Below are positions 21,673 through 60,610 of a stretch of 64,000 nucleotides of DNA, one piece after another. The notes beneath the pieces are model-generated. The model saw nothing but the letters and a program-made list of their open reading frames with translations, was not told where the DNA came from and ran no database searches. Position numbers and translations under genes: made by a program. Source of the stretch: the human T2T-CHM13v2.0 reference genome, Homo sapiens. Each line of letters begins with the position of its first letter. Within the stretch, counting starts at the first letter, position 1. Location: NCBI RefSeq assembly GCF_009914755.1, contig NC_060933.1; one strand, written 5' to 3'.

Positions 21673-23669
<1,997 letters not shown>

Positions 23670-53244: not shown

Positions 53245-53576
53245 CCTAGGTATTCTTTAAATGCTAGTACGTGGAATTGTTTCTTAATTGCCTTTCATAT
53301 TGCTTATTGCTGCCAGTTCATTTAATGAAAAAATCTAGTCCTGCCAAAAACGAAGTCAAGTTGTCCCCTGTCCCCACAAGTAACTCTTTTAGAGTGTTTT
53401 CCTTCTTTTCCTTCTCCACCTCCAAGTTTTAAGAAGTAAAATATACGTATTGTGGAAAATTTGGGGAAATGTTAACATAAAAGAAACTTCTAATCTATTG
53501 TTTAGTGACAATTTCTGTTAATGTGTCAGTATATTTCTATATTTTTCTGCATAAATATATTTTTACAGTAAATAAA

Positions 53577-55993
53577 TGCAGTAAGACTGAACAATGGTTT
53601 CTAAAGTTCTAATGGTGTTTAACCTCTGGAACCTGAAATGTTACCGATATGGGAACATGTTCTTTGCATATCTGCAAATTAAAAATCTTGAGATGAAGAG
53701 GTCCTCCTGGATTTCTGGTGGGACGGAATGCAGTCACATGTATCCTTATAAGAGGAAAACAGAGGGAGATTTGACCACACATCTGAGAGATTAGAATGCT
53801 ATAGCCACAAGCCAAGTTAGCCACCAGAAGCTGAAAAAGACAAGGAATGGATTCTCTCCTACTGACGCTGATTTTGACTGATACTGATTTTAAATTTCTC
53901 TGTTTTTAAACCACTGAGCTTGTTATAATTTATTACACTAGCCACAGGAAAGTAATAGAGATTTTGGTACAGGATATGGTGTGCTGCTGTAACAGATACC
54001 TGGGATTAGATAATTGGTGGAGGCTAGAGGAATTTTGAAGTGCACAGTGGAATTATGGATGTTAAAGGCATTTCTGGTGAGGGGTCCGAAGGAAGTGAGG
54101 AGCATATTAGAGCCTATAAATATATAGTCTTTGATAATACATATATTGTTATAAGCAAAATGTACATGTAGGAATATTGTTAAAGGTGCTGGTGAAGACT
54201 TCGAAGGAAATAAGGAACATGATATTGGGAACTGGAGAAAGGTTATCCTTGTTATATTGTGGTGGAAACTTAGCTGCACAATTGTTTGCCACAGTTGTGT
54301 GGAAAGCATAACTTGTGATCAGTGAATGTGGATGTTTTTGCTGAGGAAATTTCCAAGCAAAGTGTTCCAGGTACAGCCTGGTTTCTTCCTGATGCTTATA
54401 ATAAAGTGCAAGAGGAAAGAGTTAAATTGAGGGAATAAATGCTACTAACCAAACAAATAAAACCCCTCAAAACCAGGACTCAATCATTTGGGAAATTCTC
54501 AGCCTATTGAGATTGCAAAGTTGATAAAACTGAGATTCACTCTGGAGAGAAGTGAGGGTGTGACTGGTCAACTTTTCCTAGTGTTGAAGGGATTGGATGT
54601 TTGACTCCTGGATCCATTCAATTGTTATAGCAGAAGCCAGGGATAGAGAGGAGGTTATACAAGAAAGATCTGTGGAAGACTCTCTTTGCCTAGTGACATG
54701 GATTGCTGTGCATACACAGGAGACCCACTGGGGATTTGGAAATATTAAATCAGAAGAAACACTGCCAGCTTGGACTGAAAGGAGAAAGACAGGATTAAAT
54801 GAAAGAAGGCTGTCAGACTTTTAAAATTCTGCATGCCAGAATCAGGCTGATAAAACTGCTCAGCTGCAAACATATGCTTGAAAAAGAAAGGAAAAGGAAG
54901 AATGACTTCATGGTAGGAGCTACAGGCCTAGAGGCCTGTGGCCAGGCCCATAGGCTGGATTCAGGTGCAGAGGTCAGAACCACCAATGTAGAGGTTGAAG
55001 CTGTGGACTCACCTCAAGCCACAGAAGATTATTCCCAGGCTTTGAATCCTAATGGAATTTGCCCTTCTGGATTTCAAAATGGCTTGGGACTGTTGAACCT
55101 TTTTCCTCCTCTTTTCTCCCTTTTGGAATGGCAATATCTTTAACTGTTATTCAATGCTTATTTCACCATTGCATTTTGGAAGCAGATAACTTGTTTGCTA
55201 GTTTCAGAGGAAACTAATATAGTAAGCATAAGAATTTTCTAAATGCATTCTAATCTTTTAAACAAATCCATACTCCAATTTAAAATGGACTTCTTCCTAA
55301 ATTTAAGCCCTTCTCCAATGCCTTGCCCCAGTGCATTTTCTATGAAATCCTTGTTCCTTAGACTCAACCCTTAAGAGAATACAATCCAAAATGGTAGATG
55401 TGTATGCCAAGGTGATGCGCATAATGAGCCACTGTGGTGCAGAAAACAAACAGTGAGAAAGAAAGAGTAGCAGAATAACCTTAAAACAGATATAATTCCA
55501 TGTTTTTATCTTATCCTTTTAAATTTTTAATTTTGTGTACATTTTATAATACAGTTACACATATAATTTCCAAATTAATTGATAACCATAATTTGGGAAT
55601 GTTGTAAAACTTTTTTTTTAACCAATAGGAATGTACAATCAAAAAGGTTTAGAGACCACCGTTCTAAAACATGACTGTTGGCGGTGCATTTGGTGGTCCC
55701 GCGGATCTGTTCCTTGCTTCAACAGTGTTTGGATGGAACAGATCTGGGGACTAAAGAAAAAAACAAAGAAGAAGAAAACAATAAAATAAAACATGACTGT
55801 TACCCAATCATATTGTTAAGCGAGATCCAGAACCTGAAAAAGACAAGGAATGGATTCTTTCTTAGAGTTTCTGGAAGTAGTGTGGCCCTACTGACACTTT
55901 GATTTTAACTGAGTGATACTGATTTTAGATTTTTCTATTTTAAGCCACTGAATTTGTTGTAATTTATTGCCATAGCCACAGGAAAGTAATACA
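53577..55993 (+). mobile_element. MLT1 (MaLR) provirus remnant: 5' LTR ~53577-53960, internal part to ~55220, partial 3' LTR ~55825-55993
   Basis: Two related LTR ends (CCAGAA.CTGAAAAAGACAAGGAATGGATTCT...GCCACAGGAAAGTAATA); internal part starts GATTTTGGTAC. Confidence 0.8.
55680..55786 (+). pseudogene. Mini-retrocopy of the FTL 5'UTR iron-responsive element with A-rich tail
   Basis: GGTCCCGCGGATCTGTTCCTTGCTTCAACAGTGTTTGGATGGAACAGATCTGGGGACT matches the FTL mRNA 5' end as I recall it. A-rich tail at 55753-55786. Direct repeats TAAAACATGACTGTT at 55665-55679 and 55787-55801. Confidence 0.9.
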
Positions 55994-57240
55994 AGTTTGG
56001 TCTGTTGTCCAAACCTCATCCTGCTTTGAACTCAGTCCTTAGCTTGCAATAATTAAATAAATAAAATAATAAAATGGCTTATAGGAACCTTTAGATTTGT
56101 CCTGTTTTGCAGTGTGGCATTCTTAGAGTTTATCATTTATCTTTTTTACTTGTAAGATAGAGAGTTAGACAATAATTTGTTACTGAGATATACTTTAAAT
56201 ATGTGGCAAATATATAACATGAAGTGATGCTTCTTATTTGGTAAATTAGCATCTTATTTTAGACTTTACAATTTAAGCATTAATATATTAGCTAAAAATA
56301 ATATGCTGTCCTGGAGTTAGCTAAATGATGGGCTGCAGATGGCTTTTATTGTTTTATGAGAACCAGTTGTGTACATCTCTCCTCTTCCATAGAGCACCCT
56401 GACATTGGCCATGATGTGAGTATTTACATCATGGAAATGGGCAAATGCTAAAAATCCGGGCTTTCTTTTCCTGCATTCCACCCTGTGAGCTTTTTAGCAC
56501 TGTAAGGTTTTTAAAGACTAATTCCAAATCATGCTATACAATGTGGAACTTTGAAATCCTTTATGAAAAAATTGTTATATACCCAAATATGTTTCAGAAA
56601 TATTGTGTATAGAAATGTACTCTTTTTGTTGGAGAGTCAGAATATGTATGGTTATTCTAAAATCTATAGTTTATGATGTGAAGAAAGGTATTTAACTTTG
56701 TATAACTCAGCATTTTCTTTTTTTTTATTTTTGCTAAGTTTAATTCCTTTATTTGACAAAAGACATCATAAATAAATACCAAAACCATGGGTTGGGATAA
56801 AATATTTATAATGGCTAAAACCAGCAAAGAATTCGTATGTAAAATATAATTTATATATAAAATCATAAATTAACAAGAAAAATATAAACAATAGAAGAAT
56901 GGATGAAGGCTGTGAACAATTTACAAAAGATAATCCTGAATAACTTGAAATTTATAGGAGTAAAAAATGAGACATGTTTTCATAGATTTTCTATTCTTTC
57001 AGTTGAATATGAGGAGTATATAGGAAGACAATAAATGAGTATTGTCAACCTGCCATTTTTAACTTAGAACGTGTTATTTTGCATCAATAATCTGAATATT
57101 TTTGCAAAGAATAGGATCGTAGCACTGTCTACGTATCCAAGTATGAAGGCATACTTGGGATGAATATATACTCAAGCTGCTTTTACTTTCCATCTAGTCC
57201 TAAGAAAAGATATTTATTGACTGTTTTAGCAATGTAATTT

Positions 57241-60610
<3,370 letters not shown>

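What the first reader, a model, noticed from the sequence alone, without database searches (positions are those of the whole stretch)
55665..55801. Retroposed stand-alone ferritin iron-responsive element (IRE-only retrocopy) in TMEM38B intron 4
Seen: a 15-bp direct repeat (TAAAACATGACTGTT, at an L1-endonuclease-like CT/AAAA site) brackets 73 nt plus a decayed A tail. The 73 nt form a canonical IRE: bulged C at 55717, upper stem TTCAA/TTGGA, loop CAGTGT at 55723-55728. A perfect 10-bp lower stem (GATCTGTTCC/GGAACAGATC) and GTCCC/GGGAC extend it. Known: this matches my recollection of the first ~70 nt of FTL mRNA (FTH1 has a CAGUGC loop and different flanks), and ordinary retrocopies are 5'-truncated and keep the mRNA 3' end. 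This copy is the opposite: only the extreme 5' end, with the tail joined right at the base of the hairpin and no poly(A) signal upstream of the tail. Inference: the template was a short oligoadenylated FTL RNA, either an IRP- or structure-protected decay intermediate or a prematurely terminated transcript. That would be fossil evidence for a small IRE RNA. It is in sense orientation, so TMEM38B pre-mRNA carries an apparently intact IRP-binding hairpin.
Basis: partly seen in the sequence, partly recalled or inferred. Interest (0 to 1): 0.85.

Follow-up and report, generated by a model that had tools for sequence, protein, structure and literature searches.

The report
Retrocopy of ferritin-L mRNA's first 70 bases
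This is a DNA copy of only the first ~70 bases of ferritin light-chain mRNA (its iron-responsive hairpin) plus an A tail, and it is one of at least nine separate insertions of this kind in the human genome, which suggests that a short hairpin RNA from this gene has long existed in germline cells.

Summary
An exact 15-bp direct repeat (window 55665-55679 and 55787-55801) brackets a 73-nt copy of the 5' end of FTL mRNA and a 34-nt A-rich tail. The 73 nt hold a full Rfam IRE_I match (49.8 bits, cut-off 34). They fold into a 58-nt hairpin, and the tail joins at its base.

The element has siblings. Three scans of this genome found eight more insertions with the same build: FTL cap-site start, IRE hairpin, then an A-rich tail, with no FTL body or 3'UTR. 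Their flanks differ, and at least six of the nine have their own recognisable target-site duplication. The 3' ends lie 0 to about 32 nt past the hairpin base. Three to five of the nine end at exactly +7/+8.

Sixteen of 19 long FTL retrocopies run to the normal 3' end, and none was seen ending in between. FTH1 has the same IRE but no long hairpin, and 0 of its 16 retrocopies are short.

CpG sites decayed in different directions in different short copies, so the source kept its CpGs. That points to FTL itself, not a master copy.

Best reading: repeated L1 copying of a discrete short 5' FTL RNA. A role in TMEM38B is unsupported. I found no prior description.

The parts
55665..55679 (+). 5' target-site duplication (TAAAACATGACTGTT), at a CT/AAAA L1-endonuclease-like site
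   Evidence: Exact 15-nt repeat with two copies in the window and 0.03 expected by chance. Read.
55680..55752 (+). 73-nt copy of the cap-proximal end of FTL mRNA. It matches modern FTL nt 5-68 and adds the older form of the first bases.
   Evidence: 89% identity to FTL nt 5-68. Its start coincides with the start of old full-length FTL retrocopies.
55695..55752 (+). 58-nt extended IRE hairpin
   Evidence: Minimum-energy fold of -33.8 kcal/mol, z -6.6. Inverted repeat I1.
55707..55741 (+). Iron-responsive element core (bulged C at 55717, loop CAGTGT at 55723-55728)
   Evidence: Rfam RF00037 IRE_I, 49.8 bits against a cut-off of 34, model positions 1-36 of 36. Found again in the genome-wide scan.
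55753..55786 (+). Decayed A-rich tail (34 nt), joined at the base of the hairpin
   Evidence: Read. No similarity to the FTL 3'UTR: BLAST of the FTL gene against the locus gave only nt 5-68.
55787..55801 (+). 3' target-site duplication

Best explanation
The element is a LINE-1-made DNA copy of a short RNA that consisted of only the capped 5' end of ferritin light-chain (FTL) mRNA: the leader bases plus the long IRE hairpin.

It is one of at least nine independent insertions of this kind. They were made repeatedly over tens of millions of years from the FTL gene's own transcripts.

The template was most likely a discrete 5'-terminal FTL RNA. Its 3' end lay at, or a few bases past, the base of the very stable hairpin. 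The commonest position is +7; the window copy is at 0. This part is inferred.

Such an RNA could arise in two ways. A 3'-to-5' nuclease or RNA polymerase II could stall or stop outside the hairpin, which is bound by IRP and, next to it, by eIF3.

The RNA would then have reached the L1 reverse transcriptase in one of two ways. It may have received an untemplated A tail. Or the enzyme may have started on another poly(A) and switched onto the fragment's 3' end.

Shown: the anatomy, the parent gene, the recurrence, the independence of the insertions, and the contrast with FTH1. Inferred: that the short RNA existed, how it was made, and how it was tailed.

In TMEM38B the insert is most likely a neutral intronic passenger.
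For: **Retrocopy hallmarks in the window.** There is an exact 15-bp target-site duplication, an A-rich tail and a CT/AAAA target site.

**Parent gene.** The insert matches FTL nt 5-68 at 89% and carries the FTL-type CAGTGT loop.

**Recurrence.** Three genome scans were run:
- 73-nt DNA query: 14 of 14 candidates scored.
- Rfam IRE_I: 32 matches.
- Own model R1: 41 matches.

Together they gave 28 FTL retrocopies that keep the 5' end. BLAST of the FTL gene against each locus shows two groups:
- 9 copies carry only FTL nt ~1 to 68-96, followed directly by an A-rich tail.
- 16 of the 19 long copies reach gene position 1505 or beyond, of 1571.
- None was seen ending with a tail in between. Three long copies are unresolved.

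**Independence.** All nine upstream flanks differ. Recognisable target-site duplications are present in at least six of the nine.

**5' ends.** The short copies start at the same bases as the old long copies.

**3' ends.** Measured from the hairpin base they lie at:
- 0 (window)
- +1 (chr2)
- +7 in three copies
- +7 or +4 in one copy
- about +8 in one copy
- +11 or +18 in one copy
- +29 to +32 in one copy

The chance that 4 or more of 9 share one offset among 33 is 0.003. For 3 or more it is 0.066.

**Source kept its CpGs.** The same CpG has become TG in some short copies and CA in others. For example, the CpG 3' of the loop is TG in five copies and CA in four.

**Spread of ages.** Non-CpG divergence from FTL runs from 4.9% to 19% and interleaves with that of the long copies.

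**Specificity.** 0 of 16 FTH1 retrocopies are short, against 9 of 28 for FTL (Fisher p 0.016). The FTL leader forms a long hairpin (z -3.2). The first 90 nt of FTH1 do not (z +0.4).

**Published context.**
- eIF3 binds FTL at nt 53-76, next to the IRE, and does not bind FTH1 (PMC6721798, passages read).
- L1 makes A-tailed, duplication-flanked pseudogenes of small RNAs, either by using already adenylated RNAs or by template switching (PMC4476161, passages read).
Against: - No RNA data were available, so the short RNA is inferred from DNA fossils only.
- The 3' ends are not all identical. The window copy's own end (0) is shared by none and approached by only one sibling.
- Two or three offsets are ambiguous because of indels or A's at the junction.
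- The +7 pile rests firmly on only three copies, for which p is 0.066.
- For a nuclease blocked by a duplex, the one paper I read reports an overhang of about 3 nt, not 7 (PMC5714204, passages read). The nuclease-stall idea is therefore not specifically supported by the offset.
- The eIF3 site edge (nt 76) and the commonest end (equivalent to modern nt 71/72) agree only roughly.
- FTH1 is the only usable control. The attempts with KRT18 and SET were uninformative. I therefore cannot say that other mRNAs lack such 5'-only copies.
- All scans score only the best candidates, so the counts are lower bounds.
Confidence: 0.62

Rival explanations
1. The template was full-length FTL mRNA. The L1 reverse transcriptase started in the poly(A) tail and jumped within the same RNA or RNP to a landing site just 3' of the hairpin, skipping the body. 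The closed-loop contact between tail and cap region, or the IRP/eIF3-bound hairpin, would set the landing site.
For: - The result would look the same: 5' end plus A tail.
- Internal template switching has been proposed for 3'-truncated U5 and U3 copies (PMC4476161).
- eIF3 binds FTL right where the copies end, and does not bind FTH1 (PMC6721798).
Against: - In 0 of 9 short copies did the enzyme copy any FTL 3'UTR before jumping. Every jump would have to start inside the tail.
- The well-documented L1 switches land on the 3' end of a small RNA (U6), not inside one (PMC4476161).
- No intermediate-length copies were seen.
Confidence: 0.2
2. One short copy became a transcribed master element and spread like a small SINE. 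The nine copies would then descend from it and not from FTL.
For: The nine copies have similar length and build.
Against: - The same CpG sites decayed to TG in some copies and CA in others, and one copy still has CG. The source therefore kept intact CpGs over the whole period, as an unmethylated promoter island would.
- No substitution is shared by all short copies and absent from the long ones.
- The ages are widely spread.
- The ends differ.
Confidence: 0.05
3. An ordinary full-length FTL processed pseudogene was inserted here and later lost its body by an internal deletion.
For: Deletions do occur in old pseudogenes. One short copy (chr14b) has an internal 15-nt gap.
Against: - It would need nine independent deletions, each running from just past the hairpin exactly into the tail and leaving no 3'UTR.
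- The window's duplication and tail abut the 73 nt cleanly.
Confidence: 0.03
4. The hairpin has been taken up as a working iron-responsive element that regulates TMEM38B.
For: - It is in sense orientation.
- It has the best-preserved IRE of the nine copies: 49.8 bits, against 57.1 for FTL itself.
Against: - It lies deep in a 25-kb intron, outside any annotated exon.
- Only 5 of 9 siblings are listed over the IRE cut-off; 4 are not among the matches.
- Its good state fits its low divergence of 3 changes in 52 non-CpG sites.
- No paper in the library links TMEM38B with an IRE (0 papers).
Confidence: 0.02

Closest known systems
A-tailed processed pseudogenes of small RNAs made by LINE-1 (U1, U6, Y RNA and similar 'U/poly(A)' copies; Doucet et al. 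2015, PMC4476161)
   Same: - Complete 5' end of a short structured RNA.
- An A-rich tail that the RNA does not normally carry.
- Target-site duplication and an L1-type target site.
- Many independent insertions.
- The same two candidate routes: a pre-adenylated RNA, or a switch from another poly(A).
   Different: - The parent is the leader of a protein-coding mRNA, not a known stable small RNA.
- The 3' ends are spread over about 30 nt.
- Only nine copies are known.
Ordinary FTL processed pseudogenes (FTLP1-20)
   Same: - Same parent gene.
- Same cap-site start.
- Same L1 hallmarks.
- Same spread of ages.
   Different: Ordinary copies keep the mRNA 3' end and are full length or cut at the 5' end. 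These nine keep only the first 68-96 nt of an 878-nt mRNA.
U6/L1 and other template-switch chimeric retrocopies (Buzdin and others, as cited in PMC4476161)
   Same: A small RNA's 3' end is joined to sequence on which the reverse transcriptase started.
   Different: No L1, Alu or mRNA 3' segment lies between the FTL piece and the tail in any of the nine copies. Only A-rich sequence is there.
Short promoter-proximal capped RNAs stabilised by a 5' hairpin (HIV-1 TAR short transcripts, capped pre-miRNAs such as pre-miR-320); recalled, not from a call
   Same: A stable hairpin close to the cap, with transcripts that end just 3' of it.
   Different: No such RNA has been shown for FTL. The library search for FTL together with these terms found none.
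Ferritin 5'UTR iron-responsive element (Rfam RF00037)
   Same: The sequence and fold of the IRE core are retained.
   Different: It lies in an intron of an unrelated gene, not near the cap of a mature mRNA. IRP binding was not tested.

Membership tests
Rfam IRE_I (RF00037) | Covariance-model score above the curated cut-off (34 bits) over the whole model | tested here: met
   49.8 bits, model positions 1-36 of 36, E 9e-10. Found again genome-wide.
Rfam IRE_I (RF00037) | Bulged C, 5-bp upper stem and CAGUGN loop | tested here: met
   C at 55717, TTCAA/TTGGA, CAGTGT at 55723-55728.
Functional IRE | Lies in the 5' or 3' UTR of a mature cytoplasmic mRNA | tested here: not met
   It is in intron 4 of TMEM38B, outside all annotated exons.
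Functional IRE | Binds IRP1 or IRP2 | not testable with these tools
   Needs a gel shift or CLIP. The pair that closes the ferritin internal loop is G-U here in place of G-C.
LINE-1-mediated retrocopy | Target-site duplication flanking the insert | tested here: met
   15 of 15 identical, 0.03 expected by chance.
LINE-1-mediated retrocopy | 3' A-rich tail directly before the second repeat | tested here: met
   34 nt at 55753-55786.
LINE-1-mediated retrocopy | Insertion at a TT/AAAA-like endonuclease site | tested here: met
   The flank reads ...GTTCT/AAAAC.... The consensus itself is recalled, not from a call.
Ordinary processed pseudogene of an mRNA | Retains the 3' end of the parent mRNA (3'UTR and poly(A) signal) | tested here: not met
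   BLAST of the whole FTL gene against the locus matches only nt 5-68.
Small-RNA/poly(A) retropseudogene class | Complete 5' end of the source RNA | tested here: met
   It starts at the same bases as old full-length FTL retrocopies.
Small-RNA/poly(A) retropseudogene class | A discrete 3' end shared by independent copies | tested here: inconclusive
   3 to 5 of 9 end at +7/+8, and the rest at 0, +1, +11 or +18, and +29 to +32. p is 0.003 for four or more and 0.066 for three or more.
Small-RNA/poly(A) retropseudogene class | The source small RNA exists in cells | not testable with these tools
   No RNA data are available here. The library search found no report.
Template-switch chimeric retrocopy | A 3' partner segment from L1, Alu or another mRNA inside the same duplication | tested here: not met
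   Only A-rich sequence lies between the FTL piece and the second repeat. The same holds for the eight siblings.

The most novel reading that the evidence does not exclude
The FTL gene has produced a discrete, stable, capped RNA of about 70-80 nt for tens of millions of years, alongside its mRNA. This RNA is just the long IRE hairpin with a few flanking bases. It has been abundant enough in germline or early-embryo cells to be captured by LINE-1 at least nine times. Such an RNA would carry the binding sites for IRP and, in part, for eIF3. It could therefore act as a decoy or buffer for these factors. That would make it a regulatory small RNA hidden in one of the best-studied mRNAs.
Probability: 0.12. 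Interest if true: 0.85.

Novelty: new variant of a known kind. Interest (0 to 1): 0.66.

Why it matters
Retrocopies record which RNAs were present, and in what form, in germline cells of our ancestors. Nine independent copies hold only the capped IRE hairpin of FTL. The sister gene FTH1 has none. This argues that FTL transcripts give rise to a discrete short hairpin RNA that has not been described.

FTL translation control by IRP and eIF3 is a textbook system, and disease variants lie in this very hairpin. A leader-only RNA with the same binding sites would be a new player that can be tested directly. The tests are 3'-end sequencing, short-capped-RNA sequencing, and knock-down of the exosome or Integrator.

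The result also gives a simple recipe: look for 5'-complete, 3'-cut, A-tailed retrocopies to find stable mRNA-leader fragments genome-wide.

For TMEM38B itself the insert probably does not matter.

Tried and rejected
**Chance hairpin or chance repeat.** Rejected.

**FTH1 origin.** Rejected. The loop and flanks are of the FTL type.

**Tail derived from the FTL 3'UTR.** Rejected. There is no BLAST match beyond nt 68.

**Known repeat family at the site.** The stretch 53250-57199 is not masked as repeat. Repeat family names are not available here, so a Dfam or Repbase entry could not be looked up.

**Canonical early polyadenylation.** There is no AATAAA or ATTAAA in the 73 nt.

**Controls beyond FTH1 led nowhere.**
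- KRT18 exon 1 gave 97 candidates, of which only the best 40 were scored. All of those reach the exon end, so short copies could not have been seen.
- The SET first exon gave a single partial match besides the gene itself.

**Dating by empty sites in other primates, and looking for the same class in rodents.** Not possible, because no other animal genome is within reach.

**Literature.** Seven searches found no description of FTL 5'-only retrocopies or of a short FTL leader RNA.
- Papers seen as passages: PMC6721798, PMC11727581, PMC4476161, PMC11838501, PMC5714204.
- Papers seen as abstract and outline only: PMC11609308, PMC9528987.
- Supplementary tables are closed. Those of retrocopy or short-capped-RNA papers might list these loci or such an RNA.
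- Much of the older ferritin-pseudogene literature is not in the library.

**Nuclease-stall distance.** My recalled figure of about 7 nt for RNase II-type enzymes was not borne out by the one paper I read, which reports about 3 nt. I give that idea little weight.
Full report
**1. What is in the window**

Reading 55401-56100 shows TAAAACATGACTGTT at 55665-55679 and again at 55787-55801. This 15-mer occurs exactly twice in the 64-kb window. By chance 0.03 matches are expected, and 0 of 100 shuffles gave two. It is the longest exact direct repeat found in 55300-56200.

Between the two copies lie 73 nt (55680-55752) and a 34-nt A-rich tail (55753-55786).

A scan of 54000-57500 against all Rfam families gave four matches at E up to 10. 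Only one is over its family cut-off: IRE_I at 55707-55741 on the + strand, over the full model, at 49.8 bits against a cut-off of 34, E 9e-10.

As RNA, 55695-55752 folds into one 58-nt hairpin:
- Energy -33.8 kcal/mol, z -6.6, and 0 of 200 shuffles fold as well.
- The tail begins at the first base after the last pair.

The site is in intron 4 of TMEM38B (NM_018112.3), in sense orientation, within 53250-57199, which is not masked as repeat.

**2. Parent gene**

A search of this genome with the 73 nt found 14 places (14 of 14 candidates scored). These are the locus itself, FTL on chr19, FTL pseudogenes, and some unannotated places. BLAST of the FTL gene against the locus matches only FTL nt 5-68, at 89%. 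FTH1 has a CAGTGC loop and different flanks, and matches only the 31-nt IRE core. No part of the tail or flank matches the FTL 3'UTR.

**3. The element has siblings**

Three scans were run:
- The 73-nt DNA query.
- Rfam IRE_I genome-wide: 32 matches, with 82 of about 1.28 million first-look candidates scored.
- A covariance model R1 built from 17 FTL 5' ends: 41 matches, with 150 of about 766,000 candidates scored.

All three are lower bounds. Each FTL-type locus was then compared with the whole FTL gene by BLAST.

Twenty-eight retrocopies keep the FTL 5' end. Nineteen are long: 15 named FTLP genes and four without a RefSeq name. Sixteen of these 19 reach gene position 1505 or beyond, of 1571. 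The other three are unresolved; two of them (FTLP6 and the chr4 copy) are cut by Alu insertions.

Nine are short. They carry FTL from the cap site to nt 68-96 of an 878-nt mRNA and then go straight into an A-rich tail.

| Short copy | Position | Locus id |
|---|---|---|
| window | chr9 (this window) | L001 |
| chr14a | chr14:15.71 Mb | L005 |
| chr10 | chr10:103.26 Mb | L009 |
| chr14b | chr14:63.89 Mb | L010 |
| chr13 | chr13:59.30 Mb | L037 |
| chr7b | chr7:39.32 Mb | L042 |
| chr2 | chr2:61.75 Mb | L068 |
| chr5 | chr5:56.74 Mb | L070 |
| chr7c | chr7:141.96 Mb | L071 |

None of the eight siblings is an annotated FTLP. No copy was seen ending with a tail anywhere between nt 96 and the normal 3' end.

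**4. The insertions are independent**

The 45 nt upstream of each short copy are all different. Recognisable target-site duplications:

| Copy | Match between the two repeats |
|---|---|
| window | 15 of 15 |
| chr10 | 11 of 12 |
| chr7b | 12 of 13 |
| chr13 | 10 of 10, and more with gaps |
| chr5 | 11 of 13, with one gap |
| chr2 | 10 of 12 (read by eye; the aligner picked another match) |

For chr14a, chr14b and chr7c the duplications are weak or unclear.

**5. The ends**

At the 5' side, the short copies start at the same bases as the old long copies. The template therefore had the native cap-site end.

The old copies, short and long, also preserve an older form of the leader:
- Four more bases near the cap.
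- Four more in the pyrimidine run after the hairpin.
- A where modern FTL has G at nt 21.

The young FTLP2 and FTLP3 have the modern form. The window copy has the older form, so it predates those changes.

At the 3' side I counted from the last paired base of the hairpin in the older sequence:

| Copy | Offset of the 3' end |
|---|---|
| window | 0 |
| chr2 | +1 |
| chr14a, chr10, chr13 | +7 |
| chr7b | +7 (or +4, if the A belongs to the tail) |
| chr14b | about +8 |
| chr5 | +11 or +18 (an indel makes this ambiguous) |
| chr7c | +29 to +32 |

If ends were spread evenly over 33 offsets, four or more of nine on one offset would occur with probability 0.003. Three or more would occur with probability 0.066. 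The commonest end corresponds to modern FTL nt 71/72.

**6. The source was FTL itself**

At CpG sites of the leader, some short copies now read TG and others CA. At the CpG just 3' of the loop, five read TG and four read CA. At the next CpG, one copy still reads CG. Each copy therefore began with an intact CpG. The source must have kept its CpGs over the whole period, as the unmethylated FTL promoter region would and a decaying master copy would not.

No change is shared by all short copies and absent from long ones.

Divergence from modern FTL at non-CpG sites of nt 5-68 ranges from 4.9% to 19% in the short copies. It interleaves with that of the long copies, which run from 1.9% to 36%.

The window copy has 3 changes in 52 such sites (5.8%, 95% interval 1.2-15.9%). 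One of the three is the change on the FTL lineage itself. This places it among the younger short copies, at tens of millions of years old. A real date needs other primate genomes.

**7. Contrast with FTH1**

A 120-nt query from the FTH1 cap site found 16 retrocopies (17 of 17 candidates scored, including the gene). Fifteen cover the whole query. The one partial hit is a long copy split by an insertion. So 0 of 16 are short, against 9 of 28 for FTL (Fisher p 0.016). FTLP12 and FTLP13 share a flank and are one event, which changes this little.

The two leaders differ in structure. FTL nt 1-76 form the long hairpin (-33.3 kcal/mol, z -3.2). FTH1 nt 1-90 are no more structured than shuffles (z +0.4).

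They also differ in protein binding. In PMC6721798 (passages read), the eIF3 cross-link site on FTL spans nt 53-76, next to the IRE, and no such site was seen on FTH1. The 3' ends of the short copies fall within a few bases of that site's 3' edge. The agreement is only approximate.

**8. How it most likely arose**

Shown: L1 hallmarks, the parent gene, a complete 5' end, no body or 3'UTR, recurrence, independence, and the contrast with FTH1.

Inferred: the template was a short 5'-terminal FTL RNA whose 3' end lay at, or a few bases past, the hairpin.

This matches what is described for A-tailed pseudogenes of snRNAs (PMC4476161, passages read). There, L1 either uses an already adenylated small RNA, or starts on another poly(A) and switches to the small RNA's 3' end. 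Both routes need an RNA that ends near the hairpin.

Such an RNA could come from early termination of transcription or from decay that halts outside the stable, protein-bound hairpin. Prematurely terminated RNAs are known to be A- or U-tailed (PMC11609308, abstract read). Short capped RNAs with specific 3' ends are widespread (PMC9528987, abstract read). Neither paper mentions FTL (one search lists 0 occurrences of the term in both).

The one paper I read on nuclease stalling reports about 3 nt of overhang, not 7 (PMC5714204). I therefore do not claim that the offset identifies the enzyme.

**9. Rivals**

- A jump of the reverse transcriptase from the tail of a full-length FTL mRNA to just past the hairpin cannot be excluded. 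It would have to start inside the tail in all nine cases, since no 3'UTR was copied.
- A master-copy origin is contradicted by the CpG pattern.
- Nine matching deletions are very unlikely.
- A function in TMEM38B is unsupported:
  - The element is deep in an intron.
  - Only five of the nine copies are listed over the IRE cut-off, at 49.8, 42.5, 39.2, 38.2 and 37.2 bits. Four are not among the 32 matches.
  - The window copy's good state fits its low divergence.
  - No paper in the library links TMEM38B with an IRE.

**10. Novelty**

Seven library searches gave no description of 5'-only FTL retrocopies or of a short FTL leader RNA. A 2025 preprint on L1 chimeras does not mention FTL or ferritin (0 occurrences). 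Supplements are closed and older subscription papers are not held, so this is not proof of absence.

I class the finding as a new variant of a known kind: L1 retropseudogenes of small structured RNAs, here derived from an mRNA leader.

**11. Limits**

- No RNA data and no other animal genome were available.
- Only one usable control gene was obtained. KRT18 and SET were uninformative.
- All scans score only the best candidates, and some regions of the reference are closed. More copies may exist.

Noticed in passing
L066 (chr4:60122684-60122760, -), L069 (chr1:8046039-8046117, +), L074 (chr5:45089791-45089870, -), L075 (chr15:31785594-31785670, +): Four old, long FTL retrocopies have no FTLP name in the RefSeq gene table. 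The chr4 copy is cut by an Alu insertion.
   Followed up: partly
L041 and L044 (chr17:16.29 Mb and chr17:22.88 Mb; FTLP12 and FTLP13): The two pseudogenes share the same 5' flank and the same internal gaps. They are one insertion that was later duplicated with its surroundings.
   Followed up: no
L015:501-600 (FTL leader) compared with all old retrocopies: Compared with the state kept in old retrocopies, modern human FTL has lost four bases near the cap and four bases in the pyrimidine run just 3' of the hairpin, and has G for A at nt 21. The second and third changes lie in or near the published eIF3 and IRE region.
   Followed up: partly
The nine short copies (host genes TMEM38B, GBF1, SUSD6, POU6F2, IL31RA, LOC105375535, DIAPH3): Six of the seven short copies that lie inside genes are in sense orientation to the host gene. 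This is not significant (p 0.125).
   Followed up: partly
window 57291-57318: The 28-nt extra exon of the predicted TMEM38B model XM_054363214.1 lies inside a stretch masked as repeat (57200-58083). It looks like an exonised repeat.
   Followed up: no
L037 about 1575 onward and L071 about 1615 onward: An Alu element starts just after the tail (chr7c) or just after the tail and downstream target-site duplication (chr13) of two short copies. This fits later insertions into the A-rich site. It blurs the duplication of the chr7c copy.
   Followed up: no
Paper PMC11727581: The paper states that mouse Mir692-2 arose from a retrocopy of Ftl1 (passage read). I recall, without checking, that this comes from the coding end of the mRNA and not from the IRE.
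   Followed up: no
window 22613-23533 (-): The window also holds an annotated SRSF10 processed pseudogene inside an lncRNA. It was not examined.
   Followed up: no
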